From assembly GCA_963843525.1 (NCBI GenBank), contig CAWJKM010000003.1:477033-541032 (forward strand): a DNA stretch of 64,000 nucleotides, given 5' to 3'. Positions 7,472 through 51,108 of the stretch are shown here, in pieces. The DNA comes from Ignavibacteriota bacterium (GTDB lineage Bacteria; Bacteroidota; Ignavibacteria; UBA10030; UBA6906). The first letter of the stretch is position 1, and each line of letters opens with the position of its first letter. The notes under the pieces were generated by a model. That model was not told the DNA's origin. It worked only from the letters and a program-made list of their open reading frames with translations, and did no database searches. The translations under genes were made by a program, and so were the position numbers.

Positions 7472-8389
7472 ATGATTCCCATCAGCGCAGTTATTCCGAC
7501 GTATAACAGGGGGCCACTGCTCGCCCGGGCGATTGAAAGTGTCCTCTCGCAAACCTATGCTGCGCGAGAAGTGATTGTGATTGATGACGGCTCGAAAGAC
7601 GACTCGGCTGCCCAGGTGGCAAAATTCGGTTCGCGGGTACGATATATCCGGCAGGAAAACGCCGGTGCCTCCGAAGCGCGAAATCACGGTGTACAATCGG
7701 CTACGACTGAGTGGATCGCGTTCCTGGACTCCGACGATATCTGGGTGAATACTCACCTCGAACGCATGGCTGCTGCGATTACCGCGACAGCGGGCCGGGC
7801 ACCGGTGTACTTCTCAGATATGGAACAGACAACAGAGGATGGCGGGGGAAGCCTTTGGGATTCGATCGGTTTTCACATTCATCCGCCCCACGAGCTGGTC
7901 GACGATGCCTCTGCCTGGGTGATGATGGATCGTCAGCCGACGATGCTCCAGTGCAGCGTGTTCCGGAAATCCCGTTACCTTGAAACCGGCGGGCTTTGGA
8001 AACAACTCTGGCTTACTCATGATACACATCTGTTTCTGAAACTCTGCCTCGGGGGACCGGCGTGTGCCGTGGCTGGCTTTGGAACCATCCAGACTTCCGA
8101 CGATGCAGCCCAGGGCACGCGGTTGACGCAAACTCATGGAAGTAAGACAAGAGCATACTGGGTGGAGTCTTCGATCCTCTGGGACGACGTGATGAATCAT
8201 GCGGCGAGTAATGCGCCTGACTGGACAGCGATTGCACGTTATCGATCCTCGAACGCACGATGGCGTATTGCAAGGCATGACCTCGCGCACGGGAAGGTGT
8301 TTGCTGGCATATGGTCGGCAGTCAAGGCTGTCACCATCCAACCATCGTTGCCCGTGGTTCTTGCCCGCAGAGCCTGGTCTCGTCAATGA
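7472..8389 (+). CDS. Glycosyltransferase family 2
   Basis: ISAVIPTYNRGPLLARAIESVLSQTY…VIVIDDGSKDDS… and a DSDD motif. Confidence 0.8.
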   Translation: MIPISAVIPTYNRGPLLARAIESVLSQTYAAREVIVIDDGSKDDSAAQVAKFGSRVRYIRQENAGASEARNHGVQSATTEWIAFLDSDDIWVNTHLERMAAAITATAGRAPVYFSDMEQTTEDGGGSLWDSIGFHIHPPHELVDDASAWVMMDRQPTMLQCSVFRKSRYLETGGLWKQLWLTHDTHLFLKLCLGGPACAVAGFGTIQTSDDAAQGTRLTQTHGSKTRAYWVESSILWDDVMNHAASNAPDWTAIARYRSSNARWRIARHDLAHGKVFAGIWSAVKAVTIQPSLPVVLARRAWSRQ

Positions 8390-8534
8390 TCGGTCTTCCC
8401 GAGTTACGCTGAACCCAACAGGGAATTGTCTTACAACGGCTGCGACCTGCGCCGACACGATTTTCTCCACACCAAGACAGACGGAGTATTTTATCAGCGA
8501 TCTGAAGACACGGACGTTTAAGGGGAGTATCGTC

Positions 8535-9974
8535 ATGGGGGGAGCGACCATCGCGCTCCGGGTCCTCTCGATCGTCTCCGGTGTCATCCTGGCAAGATTG
8601 CTCAATCCCCAGGATTTTGGCATTGTTGCGTTAGCCGGAGTGGTTTTGTCGACGACCAGCCTGTTTTCCGGCTTGGGTATGAATATGGCTGTGGTTCAGA
8701 GCCGGCTGGAGCGAGGGAGTGTTGCCTTTCATGGGTTTGTTATCAGTTCGATTTCAGGGATTGTTCTTTTTCTTCTGGTTCTCGCAGGAGCGGACTTTTT
8801 CGCGCACTTTCTCGGGAGCCCATCGGTAGTGCCGGTTCTCCGGTGGATGTCGTTGCTCGTCCTGCTCGGGTCCATGGCTACGGTGCCGGAAGGTCTTCTG
8901 CAAAAGGATATGTTGTTTGGCCGGCAGAGCATTGCTGTGGTCGCCTCGGATATTGTCAATATCGGACTTTCCGTGGGGCTTGCTGTCGCCGGGTTTGGAC
9001 TTTGGAGCCTGGTCTTCGGCCCGCTTGCCAAAGGGGTCGTCTACGTCGCGCTTGTATGGATTCTTGCACCTGGTTGGGATTGGCTGCGACCCAGGCCGTG
9101 GGATAGGAAACTGACGAAAAGCATGCTCTCCTTTGGCTCACAGACCACCGGGGGCGGACTCGTTTCGTTCTTCTATTCGATAATCGACAACCTCCTTGTC
9201 GGGAGAATCCTGGGGACCGTGGCCCTCGGGTTATATGCCAAAGCGTACGATTTCAGTCTTCGGACGGTCGACGGCATTATCAACTTCATCGGGGTCGTCT
9301 TGTTCCCATCGTATGCACAAATTCAGGAAGATAAAGATCGACTGGCCCGGGCCTATTTGAAGAGCCTTCGTTTTCTCTCGTTCTTCACGGTTCCCATTGC
9401 CCTCGGGATGTTTGCGACAGCTCCCGAGATGATCGCAAAGCTCCTCGGTGAAAAATGGATCCCGATGATTGTCCCGTTTCAAGTGCTGACATTCGTCGGC
9501 GTGGTGAAACCGCTGTCAGGAACGACCGGGGCACTCTTTGCCTCCACCGGTCATCCGTCGTTTAACCTCCGCGCCGGTATTATCATTACGTTGGTCCTGG
9601 TCCCGCTTATCCTTCTGTTTCTTCACCTGGGTTTCGGGATCGTCGGAGTTGCCGCGGCCGTCGTCATCTCCCATGTCGTTGGTTTCGGTGTGAACATGGT
9701 TCAACTTCGATATCTGTTGCCGGGGAAGTCGAAGGACATGGTCGTCGCGCTTATCCCGGCCCTGCTCTGCGGTGGTGCGATGGTTGCGGCGGTATTTCTG
9801 GTCAAGCAGCCGCTCCTGGCCTGGGCCGGCGGGCGGCCAACGATCGGCACTCTGGTCTCCATGGTCGCGGTCGGAGCTGTTGTCTATGGTTCGCTCCTCT
9901 TGTTGATCCAGCGGCCACTTGTTACCGAGGTCGCTGGCATCGCATTCAAAAGGTTCCGGTCGCAGGAAGTATGA
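8535..9974 (+). CDS. Wzx-type oligosaccharide flippase (polysaccharide biosynthesis protein, MOP superfamily)
   Basis: Polytopic membrane protein with the typical N-terminus …ALRVLSIVSGVILARLLNPQDFGIVAL…. Internal ATG at 8535 is chosen because it has an AAGGGGAG RBS; the ORF track's 8199 start overlaps the upstream GT2. Confidence 0.75.
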   Translation: MGGATIALRVLSIVSGVILARLLNPQDFGIVALAGVVLSTTSLFSGLGMNMAVVQSRLERGSVAFHGFVISSISGIVLFLLVLAGADFFAHFLGSPSVVPVLRWMSLLVLLGSMATVPEGLLQKDMLFGRQSIAVVASDIVNIGLSVGLAVAGFGLWSLVFGPLAKGVVYVALVWILAPGWDWLRPRPWDRKLTKSMLSFGSQTTGGGLVSFFYSIIDNLLVGRILGTVALGLYAKAYDFSLRTVDGIINFIGVVLFPSYAQIQEDKDRLARAYLKSLRFLSFFTVPIALGMFATAPEMIAKLLGEKWIPMIVPFQVLTFVGVVKPLSGTTGALFASTGHPSFNLRAGIIITLVLVPLILLFLHLGFGIVGVAAAVVISHVVGFGVNMVQLRYLLPGKSKDMVVALIPALLCGGAMVAAVFLVKQPLLAWAGGRPTIGTLVSMVAVGAVVYGSLLLLIQRPLVTEVAGIAFKRFRSQEV

Positions 9975-41275: not shown

Positions 41276-42670
41276 TTGGACAAGCGCATACAATTCGTCA
41301 CCTGTCTATTCGTTGATTTTTTGTCGATTAACCTTGCGGGGTCATTGTACTTCTATCTGCGCACCCAGACAGGTTGGTTGACGGTGGTCGGAACGCCAGA
41401 CTTTGTTGCCCCGATGGTCGTGCTTTATGTCTACTGGTCGGCGATTTTTGCCTTCACAGGACTCTATCAGCCTCTCTATGCAGGGTCGCGGATCGACGAA
41501 CTGGCAAAGGTGTTCAAGGCCACTGCAGTCGGGTGCCTTGTCCTGTTTTTTCTGATCTATGTTGACGATGCGTCCTCGTCAAGCGGAGCCCCGAAGGCAA
41601 GGTTTCTTATGGCGGTTTACTGGATTCTACTCCTCACGTTTGCAGGGACCGGACGGGCGGTTGTGAGGAGTGTCCACCGCAGACTGCTGATTAAAGGAAT
41701 CGGTGTTCACCGAACATTGATAATCGGCAGCATGACGAAGGCAAGATCACTGTACGACATGGTCAGGCGATTTCCGGCACTCGGGTTCAATGTCGTCGGA
41801 TTTGTGGGGTTGTCCCGGCGAAAGAATGTCCCCTATCGAGATGTTCCTGTCGTCGGGGTGGTTGAAGAACTGCCTGCGATTCTTGAAAAGGAGAGGGTGA
41901 AAGAAGTCCTCGTGGCCCTCGACAGTACCGACCACGATCGACTCCTGGAAATCCTCTCGCTCTGCAACGGGAATGACGTCAGCCTGAAAATCATGCCTGA
42001 CATGTATGACGTGATCAGCGGACAGGCAAGAACCAACCAGATCTACGGGTTCCCGCTCATTGCGATCTCGCCACAGCTGATGAAGCCGTGGGAGGAGGCG
42101 GTGAAGCGTGGCCTCGATGTGATCGTTGCACTCATTATTCTGGTCCTGGGATTCCCGTTCTGGATCCTGATAGGTGTCGCCATCCGCCTGGAATCTCCCG
42201 GGCCGGCTCTCTATCGCCAGGAACGGGTAGGCAAAGACGGCGTTCACTTCAACATGATCAAGTTCCGCTCGATGCTCAACGATGCCGAACGGCATGGTCC
42301 CCGGTGGGCAAAGAAAAAGGATCCGAGGGTCACGCTGGTGGGCAGGCTTCTGCGCCAGCTGCACCTCGATGAGATACCACAGGTCTTGAATGTCCTCAAA
42401 GGTGAAATGACGCTGATTGGGCCGCGGCCGGAACGACCGGTCTTCGTCGAGAAACTCACGAAAGAGATCCCGCTCTACTCCCGGCGCTTGAAGGTGCGCC
42501 CCGGCGTCACCGGCTGGGCCCAGGTGAAGCACCGGTACGATGAAACCATCGATGACGTGCGACTGAAGGTGCAATATGATCTGTTCTATATAGAAAACAT
42601 GTCTCTGATGATGGATCTCAAGATCATCCTCTATACCGTTTTTCACGTGATCCTTGGCAAAGGGCGGTAG
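41276..42670 (+). CDS. Exopolysaccharide biosynthesis polyprenyl glycosylphosphotransferase (second initiating PGT, WbaP/EpsB-like)
   Basis: TM region and CoA-binding-like domain (…FNVVGFVG…), then …FRSMLNDAE… and …DEIPQVLNVLKGEMTLIGPRPERP…GVTGWAQV…. Apparent TTG start; no in-frame ATG near the N-terminus. Confidence 0.85.
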   Translation: MDKRIQFVTCLFVDFLSINLAGSLYFYLRTQTGWLTVVGTPDFVAPMVVLYVYWSAIFAFTGLYQPLYAGSRIDELAKVFKATAVGCLVLFFLIYVDDASSSSGAPKARFLMAVYWILLLTFAGTGRAVVRSVHRRLLIKGIGVHRTLIIGSMTKARSLYDMVRRFPALGFNVVGFVGLSRRKNVPYRDVPVVGVVEELPAILEKERVKEVLVALDSTDHDRLLEILSLCNGNDVSLKIMPDMYDVISGQARTNQIYGFPLIAISPQLMKPWEEAVKRGLDVIVALIILVLGFPFWILIGVAIRLESPGPALYRQERVGKDGVHFNMIKFRSMLNDAERHGPRWAKKKDPRVTLVGRLLRQLHLDEIPQVLNVLKGEMTLIGPRPERPVFVEKLTKEIPLYSRRLKVRPGVTGWAQVKHRYDETIDDVRLKVQYDLFYIENMSLMMDLKIILYTVFHVILGKGR

Positions 42671-42703
42671 GGAATGAGCCAACAAAACCGCAAAGGTGTC
42701 GTA

Positions 42704-43807
42704 ATGAACATTCAAATGGTCGACGTCGTTGGACAGTACAACAAAATCAAGCCGGAAGTCGATGCCGCAATCCACCGGGTCCTCGATTCCGGACAATTCA
42801 TCAACGGCAAGGAAGTCGGCGAATTTGAATGCTCCGTCGCGGGCTACCTCGGGACTAAATACGCACTCGGATGCGCCTCGGGCACGGATGCCCTCCAGAT
42901 TGCAATGATGGCGCTTGGAATCGGACCGGGCGACGAAGTGGTAACGACGCCGTTCACGTTCGTGGCGACAGCGGAAACGATCGCCATCCTTGGCGCAAAA
43001 CCGGTGTATGTGGACATCGAACCCGAAACGTTCAACATCGATCCGGCCAAACTCGCATCGGCCATCACCCCCCGGACGAAAGCCATTATCCCTGTCCACC
43101 TGTACGGACAGCCTGCCGACATGGACCCGATCATGCAAATCGCCCGGGAGAAGAAGATACCGGTGATTGAGGATTGTGCGCAGGCGATGGGAGCATCGTA
43201 TAAGGCGAAAAAAGTGGGAGGAATAGGATTGATCGGATGTATCTCGTTCTTTCCCAGCAAGAATCTCGGATGTTTTGGTGACGGCGGCATGATTGTGACC
43301 GACGATAAAGTACTCGCAGAACAGATGAAGGTGATCGCCGCCCATGGCTCGCGGGTCCGCTACTACCACGATCTCCTCGGCGTGAACAGCAGGCTTGATA
43401 CTCTCCAGGCCGCAATTCTCGGGGTGAAAATCCGTCACCTCGAGGAATACAACACCACGCGCCAGCGTGCCGCCGCAAGATATGAAGAACTCTTCCGGGG
43501 CACCCCAGTCACCGTTCCTGCGGTTGCGCCTTACGCCCAGCATATCTTCCACCAGTTTACCCTCCGTGTCCCCCGGCGGGATGATCTTGCGAACTTCTTG
43601 AAGGGAAAAGGGATTCCCCATGCGGTGTACTATCCTGTTCCACTTCATCTGCAAAAAGCGTTTGCAATGTCGGGGGGGAAACCGGGCGACTTTCCTGTGG
43701 CCGAAAAGGCAGCGGCGGAGGTGCTTTCTTTGCCTATGCATACCGAACTCACGGCGGATCAGCAGGAACATGTCGCTTCTGCGATTGCAGAGTTCTACCG
43801 GCAATGA
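42704..43807 (+). CDS. DegT/DnrJ/EryC1/StrS family PLP-dependent sugar aminotransferase
   Basis: …LDSGQFINGKEVGEFE…GCASGTDALQIAMMALGIGPGDEV… and a catalytic-lysine region …FFPSKNLGCFGDGG…. The ATG at 42704 gives the canonical N-terminus. Confidence 0.85.
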   Translation: MNIQMVDVVGQYNKIKPEVDAAIHRVLDSGQFINGKEVGEFECSVAGYLGTKYALGCASGTDALQIAMMALGIGPGDEVVTTPFTFVATAETIAILGAKPVYVDIEPETFNIDPAKLASAITPRTKAIIPVHLYGQPADMDPIMQIAREKKIPVIEDCAQAMGASYKAKKVGGIGLIGCISFFPSKNLGCFGDGGMIVTDDKVLAEQMKVIAAHGSRVRYYHDLLGVNSRLDTLQAAILGVKIRHLEEYNTTRQRAAARYEELFRGTPVTVPAVAPYAQHIFHQFTLRVPRRDDLANFLKGKGIPHAVYYPVPLHLQKAFAMSGGKPGDFPVAEKAAAEVLSLPMHTELTADQQEHVASAIAEFYRQ

Positions 43808-43837: not shown

Positions 43838-44575
43838 ATGGACTCTTCCAGACCGGCGGACACGACGATTCTCGTCGTGGTCCCGACGTATAACGAAGCA
43901 GATAACATCGCGCGGCTCATACCGGTATTGCTGGGACTTGCCGGCGAGATCGAAATTCTCGTCGTCGACGACAATTCCCCCGACGGCACCGCGGGGGTGG
44001 TGAAGGAGATGGCAAAGAGGGAATCCCGGATCCATCTCCTCGAGCGACCGGGGAAAATGGGACTCGGGAGTGCCTACGTCCTCGGATTCAAATACGCTCT
44101 GGAACACCACTATGGCTTTGTTATACAAATGGACGCCGATTTTTCGCACGATCCACACGAAATTCCGACTTTCTGTGCCGCGGCGAAAAACGCAGACCTG
44201 GTGCTCGGTTCCCGGTATGCGAACGGTGTCCGGGTTTTGAACTGGCCGATCCACCGGCTTCTGCTCAGCTATTTCGCGAATGTGTATTCAAGGATTATGA
44301 CCGGGCTCCCCATCACGGATGCAACAGGGGGTTTTAAGTGCTTCCGTCGATCCGTGTTGGAGTCCATTAACCTGAACACCATCCGCTCGAACGGCTATGC
44401 GTTTCAAATCGAAATGACGTTCAAGGCGTGGAAGAAGGGATTCCACGTCGAAGAGATCCCGATTACTTTTCTCGACCGTCGCCATGGATCGTCAAAGATG
44501 TCGAAGCAGATTGTGTATGAAGCGTTGTTCATGCTTTTCCGGCTGAGGGTGAGAGCGTGGATGAATCGGCTTTAG
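43838..44575 (+). CDS. GT2 polyprenyl-phosphate glycosyltransferase (Dpm1/ArnC-like)
   Basis: …LVVVPTYNEADNIARL…EILVVDDNSPDGT…QMDADFSHDP…. The 245-aa soluble GT2 is typical of dolichyl/undecaprenyl-phosphate sugar synthases. Confidence 0.75.
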   Translation: MDSSRPADTTILVVVPTYNEADNIARLIPVLLGLAGEIEILVVDDNSPDGTAGVVKEMAKRESRIHLLERPGKMGLGSAYVLGFKYALEHHYGFVIQMDADFSHDPHEIPTFCAAAKNADLVLGSRYANGVRVLNWPIHRLLLSYFANVYSRIMTGLPITDATGGFKCFRRSVLESINLNTIRSNGYAFQIEMTFKAWKKGFHVEEIPITFLDRRHGSSKMSKQIVYEALFMLFRLRVRAWMNRL

Positions 44576-45099
44576 CCAGTTGACAGTAAACAGTTGACAG
44601 TAGACAGTATATCGCAAGTAAGTGAGCACGGACATTCGATTGTGAATACAAATCTCCAGATAGAAAATGATCAAGTTACCCGCCAAACCCGTGATTACCG
44701 TGATTTACTTGTATGGCAGAAGGGGATTCACCTGGTGAAGGACATCTATGCCCTCACGAGGGGGTTTCCAAAGGATGAACTATTTGGACTTTCGAGTCAA
44801 CTACGTCGGGCTGCAGTCTCTGTGCCGTCCAACATTGCTGAAGGTCAGCAGAGAAGATCGGTGAATGATTTCAAAAGATACCTCTCCATCGCCCTTGGCT
44901 CCCTGGCCGAAATCGACACGCAACTGGTTGTCGCGGGTGAGCTCGGATACACATCCGGTGAAGGCCTCCGGCAACTCCAATCAGACATTTGCGATATGCG
45001 AAAGATGCTCTATGGCCTCATTGCGAGTCTTGAGAACCAGTCCTCCGTCAAGCATTAGGCTATCGCCACTGTCTACTGTCAACTGTCGTCTGTAAACTG
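44576..45099 (+). mobile_element. Four-helix-bundle gene cassette bracketed by ~33-bp imperfect inverted repeats built from CAGTNNA heptamers (IVS-like insertion)
   Basis: Left arm 44576-44610 is CCAGTTGACAGTAAACAGTTGACAGTAGACAGTAT. Right arm 45066-45099 is its near-perfect reverse complement. The arms abut the stop of the upstream gene and the start of the downstream gene. Confidence 0.45.
44594..45058 (+). CDS. Four helix bundle protein (23S rRNA intervening-sequence protein family)
   Basis: …YRDLLVWQKGIHLVKDIYALTRGFPKDELFGLSSQLRRAAVSVPSNIAEGQ…SLAEIDTQL… is the family signature. The true start may be an internal GTG at 44642. Confidence 0.7.
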   Translation: MTVDSISQVSEHGHSIVNTNLQIENDQVTRQTRDYRDLLVWQKGIHLVKDIYALTRGFPKDELFGLSSQLRRAAVSVPSNIAEGQQRRSVNDFKRYLSIALGSLAEIDTQLVVAGELGYTSGEGLRQLQSDICDMRKMLYGLIASLENQSSVKH

Positions 45100-45101
45100 A
45101 T

Positions 45102-47096
45102 ATGGATCTCACCGTCATCATCGTCAACTACAACGTTCGCCAGTTCCTGGAGAACGCGCTGACCTCCATCGGCCGGGCGCTCGAAGGGATCGAGGGTGAA
45201 GTCATTGTCGTGGATAATGCCTCACGCGATGAAAGCGTCGCGATGGTACGGAAGTCCTTCCCGTGGGTCCGGGTGATCGCCAATGCCAGCAATGACGGGT
45301 TCGCACGGGCCAATAACTCTGCACTCAGGGAGGCGAAGGGCCGGTACGTCCTTCTCATCAACCCCGACGCGATCGTGCAGGAGGATACGTTCAAGGTCAT
45401 GCTCCGGTTCCTCGATGCACATCCTGACGTCGGCCTCGCCGGGTGCAAGGTTCTCAATCCGGATGGGACGTTTCAGCTTCCCTGCAGGAGGAGTTTTCCG
45501 ACACCGTGGGTCGCGTTCACCAAAATGTTCGGCCTCTCTTCACTCTTCCCGCAGTCCCGGATCTTCGGGAAGTACAACCTTACGTACCTCAATCCGGACG
45601 AGAGCTACCCTGTCGACGCCGTGAGTGGATCGTTCATGATGGTGCGCGCCGAAGTGTACAGAAAGATCGGCGGATTGGACGAGTCGTTCTTCATGTACGG
45701 CGAGGATCTCGATTGGTGTTTCCGCGTTCGGGAGGCGGGGTTTGCGGTGTACTATGTCCACGAGACGTCCATCATCCACTTCAAGGGTGAGAGCACGCGG
45801 CGGAGCGAGATCAATGAGGTCCGCCTCTTCTACCAGGCGATGGAGCTCTTTGTTGCGAAGCACTTCCGGCGATCGACGCTGCAACGGTTTATCCTTTCCC
45901 TCGGGATCTCCATTCGCGAATTCTTCGCGTGGAGCCGACGCCTCGTAACTCCGACGTTGCTGATTGCGGTGGACTTTTCCCTCGTCGATGCCGCATTGTT
46001 CCTGAGTGCGTTCGCCTATTTCCAGGACCCGTACAAATTCATCAATGGCGCGAGTCCGGTTGTCTGGTTTGCCCCGGCGATCATCGTCGTCCTGGGACTG
46101 GCAGGATCGGGCTCGTATCACTCCAACCGGCACTCTCCCTCCCGTGCCGCGATCGGTGTCATCGGCGGCTATGTCCTGATCTCTGCCGCCGTGTTCTTTT
46201 TCAAGAACCTCGCATACAGCAGGGCCGTGGTGGCGATCTCCGGCCTGGTGAGCCTGGTGATGATCCCCGTGTGGAGGGTGGTCCTCTACAAGATTATCGC
46301 GGGAAGATCGCACGCGGGCCAGCGGAGGACGCTGTTCGGCGGCCGGACTCTCATCGTGGGCGTGGGAGAATCGGCCCGGGAGTTGCTCCGGCGTCTCCGA
46401 AGCCGCGTGGACGGGGCATACGACGTCGTGGGGTTTGTGGATACCAGCGGTCGCCATGTGGGAGAAGTCCTCGACGGCGTGGAAATCGTGGGCAACCTGG
46501 AAAATGTGGGGAAGGTCGTGGACCAGCTGCGCGTCAGCGATGTCATTTTTTCCACGGACGGACTTTCCTACGGTGAAGTGCTCTCGGTGATCACCAGGAG
46601 CAATAATAGCGCGATCAATTTCCGCCTTGTCCCGAATAGCCTCGAAGCGATCATCGGGAAAACACGGATCGATCAGCTCGATACGATCCCGCTTGTGGAC
46701 ATTGAGTACAACCTGCATTTGCCCTCTCATCGATTCCTGAAGCGCATCGTCGACCTGATTGTTTCGTCCATTATTCTCCTCCTTTTATATCTGCCTCTCC
46801 GACTGCTGAAGGGATGGTCGAAACCGGACGGCCTGGTGCGCGTGATCCCCCTGGTCTTCATCGGGAAACGCAGCCTTGTCGGTCTGCCGTTTTCGGCTGA
46901 CGGCGCGGTTGCGGCTGCTCTTTCCCGGCGCTGCGGCGGGGCGGATCTCGGCCCGATCGGGCTCACCGGGCTGATTCAGGTGAATAGCCACCCGGGAATG
47001 ACGGAGGAAGAGATGGAACGCTACGCTCTTTTTTACGCGAAGAACCACTCCTTCGGGCTGGATGTTGAAATACTGATGAAGGCGATAGGTTTTTGA
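45102..47096 (+). CDS. Fusion protein: N-terminal GT2 (WbbL-like) domain, then TM helices, CoA-binding-like domain and a degenerate phosphoglycosyltransferase C-terminal domain
   Basis: N-terminal …LTVIIVNYNVRQFL…VIVVDNASRDES…YGEDLDWCFR…. Then hydrophobic helices and …RTLIVGVGESAREL…YDVVGFVD… (the WbaP central domain). Then …DGLVRVIPLVFIGKRSLVGLPFS…, which aligns to DE(L/I)PQ…[14 protein letters not shown] with the DE dyad and PRP lost. Confidence 0.7.
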   Translation: MDLTVIIVNYNVRQFLENALTSIGRALEGIEGEVIVVDNASRDESVAMVRKSFPWVRVIANASNDGFARANNSALREAKGRYVLLINPDAIVQEDTFKVMLRFLDAHPDVGLAGCKVLNPDGTFQLPCRRSFPTPWVAFTKMFGLSSLFPQSRIFGKYNLTYLNPDESYPVDAVSGSFMMVRAEVYRKIGGLDESFFMYGEDLDWCFRVREAGFAVYYVHETSIIHFKGESTRRSEINEVRLFYQAMELFVAKHFRRSTLQRFILSLGISIREFFAWSRRLVTPTLLIAVDFSLVDAALFLSAFAYFQDPYKFINGASPVVWFAPAIIVVLGLAGSGSYHSNRHSPSRAAIGVIGGYVLISAAVFFFKNLAYSRAVVAISGLVSLVMIPVWRVVLYKIIAGRSHAGQRRTLFGGRTLIVGVGESARELLRRLRSRVDGAYDVVGFVDTSGRHVGEVLDGVEIVGNLENVGKVVDQLRVSDVIFSTDGLSYGEVLSVITRSNNSAINFRLVPNSLEAIIGKTRIDQLDTIPLVDIEYNLHLPSHRFLKRIVDLIVSSIILLLLYLPLRLLKGWSKPDGLVRVIPLVFIGKRSLVGLPFSADGAVAAALSRRCGGADLGPIGLTGLIQVNSHPGMTEEEMERYALFYAKNHSFGLDVEILMKAIGF

Positions 47097-47345: not shown

Positions 47346-47369
47346 ATTGACACTACAGTGAGGACTTCG

Positions 47370-48320
47370 ATGGCTAAGGTTATACTGGATTTCGAGAAAC
47401 CGATCGTCGAGCTCGAGCAGAAGGTCGAGGAGATGCGTCGCTATGCAGGGAATCCTGATATCGCCCAGGAGATTGTCAAGATTGAAAAGCGGGTGAATCA
47501 GCTGCAACAGAGCATCTACTCCCGTCTCACCCGCTGGCAACGGGTCCAGCTTGCGCGCCACCCGGAGCGGCCGTATACGCTGGACTACCTCCAGATGATG
47601 ACGAAAGGGTTCCAGGAGTTGCACGGCGATCGATCGGTGCGCGACGATCATGCAATCGTCGGCGGACTCGCCATGATCGACAGCGTGAAGGTGATGATTA
47701 TCGGGCATCAAAAGGGGCGCGACACGAAGTCGAACGTCTACCGGAATTTCGGGATGGCGAATCCGGAGGGATACCGGAAAGCACTCCGCCTCATGAAGCT
47801 GGCGGAAAAATTCCGGATTCCTGTCGTGACTCTTCTTGATACGCCGGGAGCGTTCCCGGGCCTCGAGGCCGAGGAACGCGGCCAGGCCGAAGCAATCGCG
47901 CGCAACCTTCTGGAGATGGCGCGACTGAAGACACCGATCGTCGTGTGCATCATCGGGGAAGGAGCATCGGGAGGAGCGCTCGGGATCGGCGTGGGTGACA
48001 GGATCCTGATGCTGGAGAACGCCTGGTACTCTGTGATATCACCCGAATCGTGCTCGAGTATCCTGTGGCGAAGCTGGGACTACAAGGAACAGGCGGCGGA
48101 GGCGCTCCAACTCACGGCCGCAGATCTCAAGAAACAGGGAGTGATTGATATGATCATCCCGGAGCCGCTGGGAGGAGCCCACAAGGCACCACAACAGATG
48201 GCGGATATCCTTAAGGAGACGTTGCTGGATGAGCTCAAGCAACTGTCGCGCCTCAAGCCTGACAAGCTGGTGGAACGAAGGATCGAGAAATTTTCGAAAA
48301 TGGGTGTGTGGGTAGGATGA
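47370..48320 (+). CDS. accA: Acetyl-CoA carboxylase carboxyltransferase subunit alpha
   Basis: [19 protein letters not shown]…[19 protein letters not shown]…[15 protein letters not shown]…[11 protein letters not shown]… is unmistakable AccA. Confidence 0.9.
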
Positions 48321-48327
48321 CGCAAAA

Positions 48328-48750
48328 ATGATCAAAAATACGTCCGACATCCGTGTCCGGTATGCGGACACGGACCAGATGAAGTTCGTGTATTACGGGA
48401 GGTTTTTCGAGTATTTCGAACAGGGAAGGTCGGACCTTCTCCGGGCTGCCGGACTCCCGTACAGCGCTGTCGAAGAGCTCGGGTTCTACCTGCCGGTCAT
48501 CGAAGCGCACGCAGTCTATAAGCGCCCGGCCCGCTTCGATGATCTCCTGCACGTCGTGACGATTCTCCGGGACATGCCTGTGGCGCGGGTGCGAATTGAT
48601 TATGAAGTGCGCAGCAACGATGACCCTGACCTGGTGGCGGAAGGCTATACCATCCACAGTTTCATCAATGCCAGAACGGGGAGGCCGTCCAGGGCGCCGG
48701 CTCAGTTTCTGGAGGCCCTTGAAATGTACAGGAAAGGATCCGGTGATTGA
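48328..48750 (+). CDS. Acyl-CoA thioesterase, hotdog fold (YbgC/4HBT family)
   Basis: …IRVRYADTDQMKFVYYGRFFEYFEQGRSDLL… is the typical 4HBT N-terminus; 140 aa. Confidence 0.7.
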   Translation: MIKNTSDIRVRYADTDQMKFVYYGRFFEYFEQGRSDLLRAAGLPYSAVEELGFYLPVIEAHAVYKRPARFDDLLHVVTILRDMPVARVRIDYEVRSNDDPDLVAEGYTIHSFINARTGRPSRAPAQFLEALEMYRKGSGD

Positions 48751-49664
48751 CCGTGGCCAATGGCGATGAACCATACGGGAGGGCTGAACGGGAGGTTCCG
48801 TTCGACGGCCGGATTCTCGGGGCGATAGAGAATGCCTTGAGGGAAGACATCGGGATGGGGGATATCACCGGTGACTCCACGCTGGATGCAGACGCGCGGA
48901 CGGGCGGTGAATTCCTCGCAAAGGCTGATGGGGTCATTGCCGGCATCGAAGTGGCGGGAGCGGTCTTTCACCTCACCGATGAAGAGGTGGTGTACCGGCC
49001 TGTGGTGAGCGACGGGACGGGCGTGAAGTCCGGGACGGTGATTGCACTGGTTGAAGGGAACGCGCGAGGAATCCTGAGGGCGGAGCGGGTCGCGCTCAAT
49101 TTTCTGCAACGAATGGGCGGGATCGCGACGATGACGCGGACATACGTCGATGCGGTGCGCGGAACGAAAGCGAAAATCACGGATACGCGAAAGACCGCCC
49201 CCGGGCTCCGCGCGATCGACAAACTCGCCGTGCGCATCGGAGGCGGTGTCAATCATCGCTATGGACTCGATGATATGGTCCTGATCAAGGATAATCACAT
49301 CGTCGCCGCGGGCGGGATCACCGCGGCCGTCCATCGCTGCCAGGATTACCTTCGCGAGCACAACATCAAGGTCGGCATTGAAGTGGAAACAACCTCACTG
49401 AAAGAGGTCAGAGAGTCGCTGTCGCTCAAAGGGCTGCAGCGCATCATGCTTGACAATTTTTCTGTTGCCGCAATGCGTGAGGCGGTCCTTCTGATTGGCG
49501 GACGCGTGGAGGTGGAAGCATCGGGCGGTATTACGCTGGAGAGCGTGAAGGAGGTCGCGATGACCGGGGTGGATTTCATTTCCGTCGGCGCCATCACCCA
49601 CTCGGTTCATGCTCTTGACATCTCTCTGGAGTTCACGTCGGGAACCCATGCCCCCCATGCGTGA
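48747..49664 (+). CDS. nadC: Nicotinate-nucleotide diphosphorylase (carboxylating), quinolinate phosphoribosyltransferase
   Basis: …GDITGDST…ERVALNFLQRMGGIATMT…TRKTAPGLRAIDKLAVRIGGGVNHRYGLDDMVLIKDNHI…; the N-terminus may be slightly over-extended. Confidence 0.85.
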   Translation: MTVANGDEPYGRAEREVPFDGRILGAIENALREDIGMGDITGDSTLDADARTGGEFLAKADGVIAGIEVAGAVFHLTDEEVVYRPVVSDGTGVKSGTVIALVEGNARGILRAERVALNFLQRMGGIATMTRTYVDAVRGTKAKITDTRKTAPGLRAIDKLAVRIGGGVNHRYGLDDMVLIKDNHIVAAGGITAAVHRCQDYLREHNIKVGIEVETTSLKEVRESLSLKGLQRIMLDNFSVAAMREAVLLIGGRVEVEASGGITLESVKEVAMTGVDFISVGAITHSVHALDISLEFTSGTHAPHA

Positions 49665-51108
49665 TCAGATACGAAGTCTGGGGGCCGACACTGCGATCTA
49701 CGGCATCAGCACCATCGTCGGCAGGTTCCTCAATTTCCTCCTTGTCTTCTTCTACACCAACGTCCTCCAGCCCGGTGATTACGGCATCGTGGCCTACGTC
49801 TATTCGCTGGTGGCATTCCTCACGATCCTCTACGGATTCGGGATGGAATCGGCGTACTTCAAGTATGCCTCCACAAAGGAACACGGGACGGACCGTGAAA
49901 ACTTCTCGACGCCGCTCCTGGCCCTGCTGGTGAGCTCGGTCGCGCTCTCTTCCCTCATCACCCTGTTTGCGTCGCCCATCGGCGGACTTGTGGCCGTCCC
50001 CGGCGAGCATGTTTCGATTATTTCGTACGCGGCATGGATCCTGTGTCTTGACACCGTGGCGGCCGTCCCGTTCGCGGCTCTCCGTCTCGAACGGCGTCCG
50101 CGCCTTTTCGCGCTCATCAAGACGGTCAACATCGTTGTGAACGTCGGAGCCAATCTTGTCCTCCTCCTGATCTATCATGCAGGCGTGGAAGGAATTTTCC
50201 TCAGCGGATTGATAGCGTCCGGGGCGACTCTTGCACTCCTGCTGCCTGTTATCATCCGTCGGTTTGAACTCCGGTTTACGCCACCCTTATTCAGGACCAT
50301 GCTGCGTTTCGGCCTTCCCTATGTTCCTGCAGGCCTGGCGAGCATGATGATCCAGGTGGTCGACCGACCGATCCTCAGGGCTATGACCGACGATGCCACG
50401 GTAGGCATCTATCAGGCGAACTACCGCCTCGGCATCTTCATGATGCTTGTGGTTTCGATGTACGACTATGCGTGGAGACCGTTTTTTCTCTCCCATGCAA
50501 ATGATCCGGACGCGAAGGCACTCTTTTCGCGTATTCTGACCTATTTCGTCCTTGTCGGCTCATCCATAACGGTCATCCTCTCGCTGTTCATGGATGATTT
50601 CGTGAAGATTCGGGTCTTCGGGCACAGCCTCATCAACCAGGAGTATTGGCCGGGACTGCCAATTGTCCCCGTGGTCCTTCTGGCATATCTCTTCCTTGGG
50701 GTTTACAATAATCTCATAGCCGGCATCTATATTAAGGAGAAGTCCCGATATCTCCCGGCCATTACCTTTGCGGGGGCAGGAGTGAATGTCATTGTCAATA
50801 TTCTTCTCATCCCGCCACTGGGAATGATGGGGGCTGCGATTGCCACCCTGGCAGCCTACGCAGCTATGGCGCTGACATTGTATATTGTAGTGCGGAGATT
50901 CTACCCGGTTCCGTACGAATGGGGCCGGATTGGGGTGATCCTCTCTTGTGGATGCGTCTGCTACATACTGTACAGGCTTGTTCCCCCGGTCTTTACGCCG
51001 ATCCTCTGGAAAACTCTTCTGGTGGCGCTTTTCGGTGGCTCGCTCATTCTTTTTAGGGCGGTTCGTCTCAGTGGATTGAGATCGTTCGGGAAGGCAGGTG
51101 AGATGTAA
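49648..51108 (+). CDS. Polysaccharide biosynthesis protein, Wzx/MOP-family flippase-like (third in window)
   Basis: …GADTAIYGISTIVGRFLNFLLVFFYTNVLQPGDYGIV… and 12-14 TM helices. Start uncertain (49609, 49648 or 49657); it overlaps the end of nadC. The last codons are embedded in the first linker-like unit of the downstream repeat array. Confidence 0.6.
   Translation: MPPMRDQIRSLGADTAIYGISTIVGRFLNFLLVFFYTNVLQPGDYGIVAYVYSLVAFLTILYGFGMESAYFKYASTKEHGTDRENFSTPLLALLVSSVALSSLITLFASPIGGLVAVPGEHVSIISYAAWILCLDTVAAVPFAALRLERRPRLFALIKTVNIVVNVGANLVLLLIYHAGVEGIFLSGLIASGATLALLLPVIIRRFELRFTPPLFRTMLRFGLPYVPAGLASMMIQVVDRPILRAMTDDATVGIYQANYRLGIFMMLVVSMYDYAWRPFFLSHANDPDAKALFSRILTYFVLVGSSITVILSLFMDDFVKIRVFGHSLINQEYWPGLPIVPVVLLAYLFLGVYNNLIAGIYIKEKSRYLPAITFAGAGVNVIVNILLIPPLGMMGAAIATLAAYAAMALTLYIVVRRFYPVPYEWGRIGVILSCGCVCYILYRLVPPVFTPILWKTLLVALFGGSLILFRAVRLSGLRSFGKAGEM

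What the first reader, a model, noticed from the sequence alone, without database searches (positions are those of the whole stretch)
45102..47096. GT2 domain fused to a WbaP-like membrane/CoA-binding region whose phosphoglycosyltransferase catalytic domain appears dead
The 664-aa protein starts as a soluble GT2 (WbbL-like; DxD and YGEDLDW motifs intact). It continues into TM helices and a CoA-binding-like domain typical of large polyprenyl-phosphate phosphoglycosyltransferases (PGTs). It ends with a region alignable to the Bac_transf catalytic domain. In that region the essential Asp-Glu dyad (DE-LPQ) reads DG-LVR, and the GPRP loop reads GLPFS. A functional PGT (41276-42670) is encoded 2.4 kb upstream, so this looks like a recycled PGT scaffold now carrying a GT2 activity. 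That is an unusual architecture; it could position a transferase at the membrane next to the lipid-linked acceptor.
Basis: partly seen in the sequence, partly recalled or inferred. Interest (0 to 1): 0.6.

Follow-up and report, generated by a model that had tools for sequence, protein, structure and literature searches.

The report
Sugar transferase on a dead primer-enzyme chassis
This gene encodes a sugar-adding enzyme (GT2) permanently fused to the membrane body of a second enzyme type (a WbaP-like phosphoglycosyl transferase) whose own active site has been deleted; the fusion is conserved next to a working copy of that second enzyme in dozens of Ignavibacteria-type genomes, so it is a natural example of an enzyme recycled as a membrane scaffold.

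Summary
Window 45102-47096(+) is one uninterrupted 664-aa ORF. It contains a GT2 domain (res 1-255), four TM helices, the PF13727 "CoA-binding" DUF, a re-entrant membrane helix, and a 93-residue remnant of the Bac_transf catalytic domain.

The remnant scores 25 bits, against 221 bits for the intact Lg-PGT 2.4 kb upstream. It lacks about 60-70 residues (KFRTM hairpin, DPR, DE helix context). It has no conserved acidic residue where the Asp-Glu dyad should be, in any of 81 orthologues.

What survives is what folds and anchors PglC:
- Lys-Arg (K547/R548)
- the helix-breaking Pro
- Asp654, the partner of the Lys salt bridge
- the C-terminal helices, which are under strong purifying selection

The family is large: 103 of the 150 best-scoring 50%-identity cluster representatives are full-length, from Ignavibacteriota, KSB1, Calditrichota, Gemmatimonadota and Marinimicrobia. 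It sits in a fixed cluster: Lg-PGT-(DegT)-small GT2-fusion-AccA...Wzx.

A rare sister clade (about 750 aa, e.g. Ca. Fermentibacter) has the same GT2 fused to an intact PGT and no separate PGT nearby.

Best reading: an early-step GT2 acting on the undecaprenyl-PP-sugar, tethered by a pseudo-PGT chassis. That does not change the conclusion.

The parts
45102..47096 (+). Whole gene: 664-aa GT2 / pseudo-Lg-PGT fusion protein (the stop codon is at 47094-47096)
   Evidence: It is a single ORF. The identical protein is in NCBI as 'MAG: glycosyltransferase [Bacteroidota bacterium]'. Full-length orthologues at 39-81% identity exist.
45102..45866 (+). GT2 (GT-A fold) glycosyltransferase domain, res 1-255. 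Key residues are D38 (nucleotide-binding), N87-P88-D89 (an NXD form of DxD) and Y199-G-E201-D202-L-D204-W (the Gal/GalNAc-T-like 'ED' catalytic motif).
   Evidence: Pfam gives PF00535 at 81 bits, PF13641 at 76 bits and PF02709 at 23 bits. All the listed residues are invariant in 68 sequences. AF2 pLDDT is mostly 84-96. Foldseek hits are GalNAc-T2, RmlT, TarS and WrtF. There is no QxxRW motif.
45867..46316 (+). Interface helices plus a four-helix transmembrane bundle (res 256-405; TM 281-306, 313-339, 347-371, 375-401), homologous to the N-terminal bundle of Lg-PGTs
   Evidence: Based on hydropathy, the AF2 helices and hhalign to Lg-PGT from res 285.
46317..46721 (+). PF13727 'CoA_binding_3' DUF (Rossmann-like, IVGxGxSA motif at 418-425) followed by the beta-hairpin segment 511-536. 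In WbaP that hairpin is domain-swapped across the dimer.
   Evidence: Pfam scores 57.7 bits. There is 31% identity to the neighbouring Lg-PGT over res 407-561. Invariant residues are G413, V419, G420, G422, V510, P511, E515, G519, K520, D524, L526, P530 and I534. The hairpin has pLDDT 29-47 in the monomer model, as reported for the WbaP monomer (PMC10942596).
46722..46814 (+). Re-entrant membrane helix of the former PGT domain (res 541-571): K547-R548, D551, and Pro at K+17/18
   Evidence: K547 and D551 are invariant in 81 of 81 sequences. R548 is invariant in 120 of 120 and 68 of 68. P564 is present in 77 of 81; the window has P565. This matches the PglC determinants K7-R8 and S23-P24 (PMC6133551). 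pLDDT is 84-93.
46815..47093 (+). Vestigial Bac_transf catalytic domain (res 572-664). It keeps LP.V..G..S.VG.P (583-596), LGP.G.TG..Q (616-626) and Y.LYYAKN.S..LD.EI (641-657). It lacks the hairpin/KFRTM, DPR, the Asp-Glu dyad and GPRP.
   Evidence: Bac_transf scores 25 bits, profile positions 130-174 only. There is no conserved acidic residue between 552 and 636. D654 is invariant and aligns with PglC Asp169, the salt-bridge partner of Lys7. For res 616-664, window versus L005, pN is 0.057 against pS 0.81.
41276..42670 (+). Stand-alone intact Lg-PGT (the initiating phosphoglycosyl transferase), the conserved upstream partner
   Evidence: Bac_transf 221 bits and CoA_binding_3 67.5 bits. TIGR03025 428 bits. 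KFRSM, LDEIPQ and GPRP are present. It lies upstream in 51 of 60 orthologous loci.
42674..43807 (+). DegT/PseC-type sugar aminotransferase (present in part of the orthologous loci)
   Evidence: PF01041 at 420 bits, NCBIfam hits PseC/WecE/ArnB-like, and synteny.
43838..44575 (+). Small soluble GT2 (245 aa). It is immediately upstream of the fusion in orthologous loci. Its nearest named families are polyprenyl-phosphate sugar synthases (PpgS, AglJ, ArnC), all far below their cut-offs.
   Evidence: Pfam and NCBIfam. It is adjacent in 70 of 79 loci, typically about 8 bp from the fusion start.
47358..48320 (+). AccA (acetyl-CoA carboxylase carboxyltransferase alpha), the invariant downstream neighbour. 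It serves as a synteny anchor and is probably not functionally linked.
   Evidence: PF03255 at 493 bits. It is adjacent in 76 of 77 loci.
49609..51108 (+). Wzx-type (Polysacc_synt) flippase, a conserved member of the downstream block
   Evidence: PF01943 and PF13440. It lies downstream in 43 of 59 loci.

Best explanation
The protein is a membrane-tethered GT2 glycosyltransferase built on the chassis of a large monotopic phosphoglycosyl transferase (Lg-PGT, WbaP type). The PGT catalytic centre of that chassis has been lost.

Shown:
- The N-terminal GT-A domain keeps all its catalytic motifs.
- The middle is the Lg-PGT four-helix bundle plus the PF13727 nucleotide-binding/dimerisation DUF and its beta-hairpin.
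- The C-terminus keeps only the membrane-association and folding parts of the PGT domain: the re-entrant helix with Lys-Arg and Pro, the Lys-Asp clamp, and the C-terminal helices.
- It lacks the hairpin/KFRTM, DPR, Asp-Glu dyad and GPRP elements.

Inferred mechanism:
- The neighbouring intact Lg-PGT puts the first sugar-phosphate on undecaprenyl phosphate.
- The fusion's GT2 domain is held at the cytoplasmic membrane face and probably dimerised by the dead chassis. Together with the adjacent small GT2, it adds one of the next sugars to the undecaprenyl-PP-linked intermediate.
- The downstream Wzx flips the product.

Inferred origin: the dead domain is a relic of a bifunctional GT2-PGT enzyme like the one that survives in a rare sister clade.
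For: Architecture and death of the PGT core.
- Bac_transf scores 25 bits against 221 bits for the neighbour.
- Only Bac_transf profile positions 130-174 of 179 are matched (res 618-662), and about 60-70 residues are missing after the re-entrant helix.
- No conserved acidic residue lies between 552 and 636 in 81 orthologues.
- The DE position reads RV, LL, NK, QK, EK or HR in different lineages.

Retained structural determinants:
- K547, D551 and D654 are invariant in 81 of 81 sequences; R548 is invariant in 120 of 120 and 68 of 68.
- Pro sits at K+17 in 77 of 81.
- These match the PglC residues K7/R8, P24 and D169 (PMC6133551; alignment).

Purifying selection on the remnant: pN is 0.057 against pS 0.81 for res 616-664, and mean column identity is 0.73.

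GT2 intact:
- D38, N87-P-D89 and E201-D202-L-D204 are invariant.
- An NXD motif is active in another GT2 (PMC11231755).

Coupling to a real PGT:
- An Lg-PGT lies within 8 kb upstream in 51 of 60 loci.
- The small GT2 is adjacent in 70 of 79 loci.
- Wzx lies downstream in 43 of 59 loci.

Rosetta-stone argument:
- The same GT2 subfamily (46-53% identity) is fused to an intact PGT in P0241 and P0271-P0279.
- The two of their loci that were examined (L085, L086) show no separate PGT nearby.

The Lg-PGT DUF mediates dimerisation and binds uridine nucleotides in WbaP (PMC10942596).
Against: - No activity data exist for any family member.
- Donor and acceptor are unknown. The nearest named GT2 families (WbbL-type rhamnosyltransferase TIGR01556, 58.6 bits against a cut-off of 200) are far below threshold.
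- In KSB1, Calditrichota and some other loci (9 of 60) no Lg-PGT lies within 8 kb, so adjacency is not universal.
- The scaffold is slightly more similar to stand-alone Lg-PGTs (75-80 bits) than to the scaffold of the intact fusion clade (57-66 bits). Descent from that bifunctional form is therefore not proven.
- The domain arrangement in the AF2 model is uncertain (pTM 0.56).
- The first Asp of DxD is Asn.
Confidence: 0.65

Rival explanations
1. Pseudoenzyme partner or regulator. The main role of the dead chassis is to heterodimerise with the genuine Lg-PGT through the DUF and the swapped beta-hairpin. That would form a PGT-GT assembly that channels the Und-PP-sugar, or would tune PGT activity through the uridine-nucleotide-binding DUF. 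Simple self-anchoring of the GT2 would be secondary.
For: - WbaP-type PGTs are obligate dimers held by the DUF and hairpin, and the DUF binds UMP/UDP (PMC10942596).
- The hairpin and the GxGxxA motif are among the most conserved parts of the fusion.
- The hairpin is low-confidence in the monomer model, as it is for WbaP.
- An Lg-PGT is co-located in 51 of 60 loci.
- The fusion DUF is 31% identical to the DUF of the neighbouring PGT.
Against: - No multimer model or interaction data could be obtained.
- A homodimer explains the same conservation.
- KSB1 and Calditrichota members lack an adjacent Lg-PGT.
Confidence: 0.2
2. The GT2 domain does not extend an Und-PP-linked glycan. Instead it makes a polyprenyl-monophosphate sugar, or it glycosylates another membrane acceptor such as a lipid, a protein or a teichoic-acid-like polymer. 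In this reading the chassis serves only as a generic membrane anchor.
For: - GT2 specificity cannot be read from sequence.
- Foldseek hits include TarS, RmlT (wall teichoic acid GTs) and Dol-P-Man-type enzymes.
- The adjacent small GT2 resembles polyprenyl-P sugar synthases.
- The same 4TM+DUF module anchors unrelated enzymes, the PglF-like dehydratases (PMC10942596).
Against: - The same GT2 subfamily is fused to an active PGT in the sister clade, which argues for consecutive steps.
- The gene is embedded between a PGT and a Wzx flippase.
- Its best GT2 family hints are second-step, repeat-unit GTs.
Confidence: 0.12
3. The C-terminal domain is still a working, non-canonical PGT, so the protein is a true bifunctional Bi-PGT.
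For: - A weak Bac_transf match is present (E 1.5e-5).
- Half of the family has a VGRP motif resembling GPRP.
- Bifunctional GT-PGT fusions are known as a class (PMC11626204).
Against: - About 60-70 residues of the core are missing, including KFRTM and DPR.
- There is no conserved Asp or Glu anywhere between 552 and 636.
- Scores are 25 bits against 197-224 bits for real domains.
- A separate intact PGT is conserved alongside.
Confidence: 0.02
4. Artefact: two genes were merged by a sequencing or assembly error or by a missed stop.
For: None was found.
Against: - The ORF is uninterrupted.
- The same single ORF of 657-710 aa occurs in 80 independent species-level genomes and in hundreds of metagenome proteins.
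Confidence: 0.01

Closest known systems
Large monotopic phosphoglycosyl transferases (Lg-PGT; S. enterica WbaP, PDB 8T53; TIGR03025/TIGR03022)
   Same: - Four-helix TM bundle, PF13727 DUF, beta-hairpin, and a re-entrant helix with Lys-Arg and Pro.
- C-terminal helices with the conserved Asp.
- Alignable end to end (hhalign 99.6%).
- 8T53 is found by sequence (E 8.7e-7) and by Foldseek (6e-12).
   Different: - The catalytic core is deleted or degenerate, with no Asp-Glu dyad, KFRTM, DPR or GPRP.
- Bac_transf is below the Pfam gathering score, and TIGR03025 scores 137 bits against a cut-off of 295.
- It carries an extra N-terminal GT2 domain.
Bifunctional monoPGTs (Bi-PGT class; PGT core fused to acetyltransferase or glycosyltransferase domains), including the GT2-Lg-PGT clade found here (P0241, P0271-P0279, e.g. 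Ca. Fermentibacter)
   Same: - A GT domain and a PGT-derived domain sit in one polypeptide.
- The GT2 halves are 46-53% identical to the window's GT2.
- The overall domain order is the same.
   Different: - In those proteins the PGT domain is intact: Bac_transf 197-205 bits, with KFRTM, DELPQ and GPRP.
- The two loci examined (L085, L086) have no separate Lg-PGT nearby.
- In the window protein the PGT half is a pseudo-domain.
WbbL-type GT2 'second-sugar/adaptor' transferases (E. coli, K. pneumoniae and mycobacterial WbbL: Rha onto polyprenyl-PP-GlcNAc)
   Same: - It is a GT2 enzyme predicted to act right after the initiating PGT.
- TIGR01556 is among the best GT2 family hints.
- The role of WbbL as second-step enzyme is described in PMC11231755.
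   Different: - The score is far below the family cut-off (58.6 against 200.55).
- WbbL proteins are soluble or peripheral single-domain proteins without a TM/DUF/PGT chassis.
- The donor sugar here is unknown.
PglF-like membrane-bound sugar dehydratases
   Same: They reuse the same 4TM + PF13727 module to tether a different catalytic domain of glycoconjugate biosynthesis (PMC10942596).
   Different: - The catalytic domain there is C-terminal and is a dehydratase.
- There is no PGT remnant and no GT2.

Membership tests
GT2 glycosyltransferases (Pfam PF00535, GT-A fold, inverting) | Family profile match above the curated threshold | tested here: met
   PF00535 scores 81.1 bits against a gathering score of 23.3. 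PF13641 scores 75.8 bits against 27.
GT2 glycosyltransferases (Pfam PF00535, GT-A fold, inverting) | DXD-type metal/diphosphate-binding motif after beta-4 | tested here: met
   The motif is present as the NXD variant N87-P88-D89, which aligns with DSD of TarS and DAD of 6P61. It is invariant in 68 sequences. NXD is functional in a K. pneumoniae O7 GT2 module (PMC11231755).
GT2 glycosyltransferases (Pfam PF00535, GT-A fold, inverting) | Catalytic acidic residue ('ED' motif) and GT-A fold | tested here: met
   Y199, E201, D202 and D204 are invariant. The AF2 GT-A domain has pLDDT about 84-96. Foldseek hits GT-A enzymes at E about 1e-11.
GT2 glycosyltransferases (Pfam PF00535, GT-A fold, inverting) | Glycosyl transfer activity | not testable with these tools
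   This needs an enzyme assay.
Lg-PGT (large monotopic phosphoglycosyl transferase, WbaP-like) | N-terminal four-TM bundle plus PF13727 DUF | tested here: met
   Hydropathy gives 4 TM helices. PF13727 scores 57.7 bits against a gathering score of 25. hhalign aligns from res 285.
Lg-PGT (large monotopic phosphoglycosyl transferase, WbaP-like) | Re-entrant membrane helix with Lys-Arg and (Ser/BCAA)-Pro motifs | tested here: met
   K547 and R548 are invariant. Pro sits at K+17 in 77 of 81 sequences, and at K+18 in the window. The determinants come from PMC6133551.
Lg-PGT (large monotopic phosphoglycosyl transferase, WbaP-like) | Complete Bac_transf (PF02397) catalytic domain above threshold | tested here: not met
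   It scores 25.0 bits against a gathering score of 27 and covers only profile positions 130-174 of 179. TIGR03025 scores 137 bits against 295.55. A catalytic-domain HMM scores below 48 bits for all dead members and above 244 bits for intact ones.
Lg-PGT (large monotopic phosphoglycosyl transferase, WbaP-like) | Asp-Glu catalytic dyad (with the KFR(T/S)M, DPR and GPRP motifs) | tested here: not met
   The aligned positions are R580-V581 in the window and are variable in the family. No conserved acidic residue lies between 552 and 636 in 81 sequences. The KFRTM, DPR and GPRP segments are deleted.
Bi-PGT (bifunctional monoPGT fusion) | Additional catalytic domain fused to a functional monoPGT core | tested here: not met
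   A GT2 is fused, but the PGT core is non-functional by every sequence criterion. The sister clade P0241/P0271-P0279 does meet this feature.
Processive GT2 synthases (BcsA/HAS type) | QxxRW motif and a TM channel contiguous with the GT domain | tested here: not met
   There is no Q..RW in the protein. The TM helices are homologous to the Lg-PGT bundle. The HAS Foldseek hits have TM-scores of only 0.28-0.36.

The most novel reading that the evidence does not exclude
The dead Lg-PGT chassis is a dedicated pseudoenzyme subunit. Through the conserved DUF and swapped beta-hairpin it would heterodimerise with the neighbouring active Lg-PGT. The vestigial re-entrant-helix domain would still cradle the undecaprenyl-PP-sugar and hand it directly to the fused GT2. 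That would make a hard-wired initiation/extension 'metabolon', possibly gated by UMP/UDP binding to the DUF. It would be the first natural pseudo-PGT with an assigned role, and a direct read-out of what the non-catalytic parts of Lg-PGTs do.
Probability: 0.2. Interest if true: 0.75.

Novelty: new variant of a known kind. Interest (0 to 1): 0.5.

Why it matters
Monotopic PGTs start most bacterial surface-glycan pathways. The function of the accessory TM bundle and DUF of the large class is still only partly understood; dimerisation and UMP binding are known for WbaP.

This family is a natural deletion experiment. Evolution removed the catalytic core. Across a whole group of phyla it kept the TM bundle, the DUF, the hairpin, the re-entrant helix and the Lys-Asp clamp. 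That implies these parts have a selectable function independent of phosphoglycosyl transfer.

A graded series exists, from intact to full-length-degenerate to truncated. This gives a ready set of constructs for asking three things:
- what anchors and organises early glycan assembly at the membrane
- whether PGT and the next GT are physically coupled
- how database annotation should treat such proteins, which are sometimes labelled as PGT/O-antigen biosynthesis proteins although they cannot prime

Tried and rejected
- Single-sequence AF2 gave an unusable model (pLDDT 43). The MSA-based model was used instead.
- O'Toole et al. 2021 (the PGT SSN paper that catalogues fusions) and the 2021 BST review are not held. 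I cannot exclude that this architecture is mentioned there. Full-text searches for PF13727 and for pseudoenzyme + glycosyltransferase + undecaprenyl + scaffold found nothing relevant.
- dN/dS between the window and its closest DNA relative (L005, 75% aa identity) is saturated at synonymous sites for most segments. Only pN/pS contrasts are reported.
- I tried to decide between a single and an independent origin of the fusion by BLAST of the scaffold alone. The result was ambiguous: 57-66 bits to the intact-fusion scaffolds against 75-80 bits to stand-alone Lg-PGTs. That comparison used only three stand-alone Lg-PGTs from related genomes.
- The processive-synthase reading was rejected because there is no QxxRW.
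- The missed-stop or frameshift artefact was rejected.
Full report
**1. Observation**

The ORF 45102..47096(+) is real and uninterrupted: 664 aa with an ATG start.

Pfam finds:
- a GT2 domain at res 4-189 (PF00535, 81 bits; PF13641, 76 bits)
- the PF13727 'CoA_binding_3' domain at res 357-511 (57.7 bits)
- only a sliver of Bac_transf, res 618-662, matching profile positions 130-174 of 179 at 25.0 bits, below the gathering score of 27

NCBIfam's Lg-PGT model TIGR03025 aligns its positions 3-274 of 445 to res 291-563 but reaches only 137 bits against a cut-off of 295.

The gene 2.4 kb upstream (41276-42670) is a normal Lg-PGT. It scores 221 bits for Bac_transf and 428 bits for TIGR03025, and it has KFRSM, LDEIPQ and GPRP.

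Hydropathy gives four TM helices (281-306, 313-339, 347-371, 375-401) and a fifth hydrophobic segment at 544-571, the re-entrant helix.

**2. The dead domain**

A profile of 68 family members aligns to real Lg-PGTs end to end (hhalign probability 99.6%, res 285-662 versus 8-458 of 464). There is a long gap immediately after the re-entrant helix.

The following elements are missing:
- the beta-hairpin with GPxxFxQxRxG...KFR(T/S)M
- the DPRxT segment
- the context of the LDELPQ helix

In total about 60-70 residues are gone.

Anchoring on the conserved LP..V..G..S.VG stretch, the canonical Asp-Glu corresponds to R580-V581 in the window.

In the family these columns are L/R/A and L/R/A/S, and D576 is itself unconserved. 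In deeper-branching members the same positions read NK, NR, RY, RQ, RR, QK, EK or HR.

In an alignment of the window protein with 80 species-level orthologues (39-75% identity), no column between 552 and 636 is predominantly acidic.

A catalytic-domain HMM scores below 48 bits on every such protein and 244-320 bits on intact ones. The PGT function is gone family-wide.

**3. What was kept**

The surviving C-terminal residues are not random.

- K547, D551, G594, G620, Y645 and D654 are invariant in 81 of 81 sequences. R548 is invariant in the 120- and 68-sequence family alignments.
- A proline sits 17 residues after K547 in 77 of 81 sequences; the window has it at +18.

In PglC the re-entrant topology is set by Lys7-Arg8 and Ser23-Pro24, also a spacing of +17. 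Lys7 forms a salt bridge to Asp169 of the C-terminal globular part (PMC6133551).

The HMMER alignment of the window C-terminus to PglC (8E37/8G1N) puts the fusion's LD654VEI on PglC's LDVKI. That is Asp169 once a four-residue N-terminal offset in the deposited chain numbering is removed; I infer the offset from Lys-Arg lying at chain positions 11-12 against native 7-8.

So the elements that fold and seat the domain in the membrane interface are retained, while the chemistry is deleted.

The remnant is under strong constraint. For res 616-664, window versus L005, pN is 0.057 against pS 0.81. That pN is lower than the GT2 domain's 0.102. Mean column identity is 0.73.

The DUF (GxGxxA motif 418-425) and the hairpin segment 510-536 are also highly conserved. 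The hairpin is the only low-confidence part of the chassis in the AF2 monomer model (pLDDT 29-47; overall 78.9, pTM 0.56). The same behaviour was reported for WbaP, where the hairpin is domain-swapped in the dimer and the DUF binds UMP/UDP (PMC10942596).

**4. The GT2 half**

- D38, N87-P88-D89 and Y199-G-E201-D202-L-D204 are invariant.
- The 'DxD' is an NXD variant. It aligns to DSD of TarS and DAD of 6P61. An NXD GT2 module is enzymatically active in K. pneumoniae O7 (PMC11231755).
- There is no QxxRW, so it is not a processive synthase.
- Foldseek finds generic GT-A enzymes (GalNAc-T2, RmlT, TarS, WrtF) and WbaP 8T53.
- Specificity cannot be assigned. The best named hint, WbbL-type rhamnosyltransferase (TIGR01556), is far below its cut-off.

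**5. Distribution and context**

The identical protein is in NCBI as a 'glycosyltransferase' of a Bacteroidota MAG.

Full-length relatives:
- More than 120 relatives at 56-81% identity exist in metagenomes.
- In the search of 1.84 billion representatives, 103 of the 150 best 50%-identity clusters have the complete architecture.
- In GTDB species genomes the 80 best loci are all full length. They come from Ignavibacteriota (including Ignavibacterium album, Melioribacteraceae, Ca. Kryptonium), KSB1, Calditrichota and 'Bacteroidota' MAGs.
- Source-given names among further hits include Gemmatimonadota, Marinimicrobia and Deferribacteres.

Synteny is striking:
- AccA directly downstream in 76 of 77 loci
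- the small GT2 directly upstream in 70 of 79 loci, usually about 8 bp away
- an intact Lg-PGT within 8 kb upstream in 51 of 60 loci
- a Wzx-type flippase downstream in 43 of 59 loci

A variable set of GT, Wzy, Wzz and Wzx genes lies further upstream. The nine loci without an adjacent Lg-PGT are mostly KSB1, Calditrichota and 'Cytophagia'-labelled.

**6. Relatives with a live domain**

One representative, P0241 (755 aa), has the same GT2 followed by a complete Bac_transf (197.5 bits) with KFRTM, DELPQ and GPRP.

Searching with it found nine more such proteins (730-777 aa, 47-71% identical to P0241; one is named Ca. Fermentibacter). These are 10 of the 379 sequences collected.

- Their GT2 halves are 46-53% identical to the window's GT2.
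- Two loci examined have no separate Lg-PGT nearby.

Intermediates also exist:
- Gemmatimonadota-type proteins have a full-length but degenerate domain (P0132, P0284, P0285; 39-48 bits).
- P0137 keeps GPRP but has EK at the dyad position.
- KSB1 and Calditrichota members keep a remnant of the hairpin.
- Ignavibacteriota members, including the window, are the most reduced.

The simplest reading is reductive evolution from a bifunctional PGT-GT enzyme once a separate PGT took over priming. This is an inference. The scaffold alone is no closer to the intact-fusion scaffolds (57-66 bits) than to stand-alone Lg-PGTs (75-80 bits), so independent fusion or domain replacement is not excluded.

**7. 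Mechanism proposed**

Shown: the domain anatomy, the loss of catalytic motifs, the retention of anchoring motifs, and the conserved neighbourhood.

Inferred:
- The neighbouring Lg-PGT primes undecaprenyl phosphate.
- The fusion's GT2 is held at the cytoplasmic face by the 4TM bundle and re-entrant helix and is dimerised through the DUF and hairpin. It adds an early sugar to the Und-PP-linked intermediate.
- The small GT2 adds another sugar.
- The downstream Wzx exports the product.

The fusion of the same GT2 to a live PGT in the sister clade is the main argument that the two activities are consecutive.

Whether the chassis pairs with itself or with the live PGT, and whether the vestigial domain still binds the polyprenyl-PP head group, is open. 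That is the most novel reading not excluded.

**8. Comparison and verdict**

The protein works like a membrane-tethered early GT. It is a member of GT2. It is not a member of the Lg-PGT or Bi-PGT enzyme classes, because the defining catalytic domain and dyad were tested and not met.

Bi-PGTs with fused GTs are a known class (PMC11626204), and the 4TM+DUF module is known to be reused by PglF-like dehydratases.

I found no description of a conserved pseudo-PGT in the papers I could search. The key SSN paper could not be read.

I rate it a new variant of a known kind, of moderate interest. It is a clean, widespread and testable case of enzyme-to-scaffold conversion in a pathway where the role of the accessory domains is an active question.

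Noticed in passing
L001:5557-8040 (+) (ENA ERZ25039554 contig_31679): At the position of the stand-alone Lg-PGT in the conserved cluster, this relative encodes an 827-aa protein. It combines a polytopic WecA/MraY-type PGT domain (PF00953, 136 bits) with PF13727 and a complete monotopic Bac_transf domain (224 bits). That puts two unrelated kinds of initiating phosphoglycosyl transferase in one polypeptide.
   Followed up: partly
window 44594-45058 (+): A 154-aa '23S rRNA intervening-sequence protein' (PF05635, 128 bits) gene sits between the small GT2 and the fusion gene. It is also present at this spot in the closest relative, L005. In L084 it lies between the Lg-PGT and the small GT2. It is absent from most other loci, where the two GT genes are about 8 bp apart. 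It looks like a small insertion into an otherwise tight operon.
   Followed up: partly
L002:5285-6903 and 8164-9021 (GCA_016707525.1, JADJHP010000001.1): In this Ignavibacteriae genome the Lg-PGT is called as two genes (216 aa with PF13727, 252 aa with Bac_transf). The DegT homologue appears only as an uncalled tblastn match. Either the partner genes have decayed or there are assembly frameshifts, while the fusion gene stays intact.
   Followed up: no
window 47358-51108 and orthologous loci: The housekeeping genes accA, a 4HBT thioesterase and nadC (QPRTase) are wedged between the glycan genes (PGT, GT2s) and a Wzx-type flippase. DUF1385 and, in L001-L004, prfA follow. This order is conserved across Ignavibacteriota down to about 40% protein identity. 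It is an unusually stable mixed neighbourhood.
   Followed up: partly
window 41747-43804 (-) and 45540-46730 (-): Long antisense ORFs (685 aa and 396 aa) overlap the PGT/DegT genes and the fusion gene. They are most likely non-coding shadows of the sense-strand genes (local G+C 52-60%). They were not examined further.
   Followed up: no
L085:8532-10031 and L086:8499-10004: In the clade with an intact GT2-PGT fusion, the gene is preceded by a B12-binding radical SAM gene, two GT2 genes and a DUF218 gene. It is followed by a GWxTD-domain protein. This context is quite different from that of the dead-domain family.
   Followed up: no
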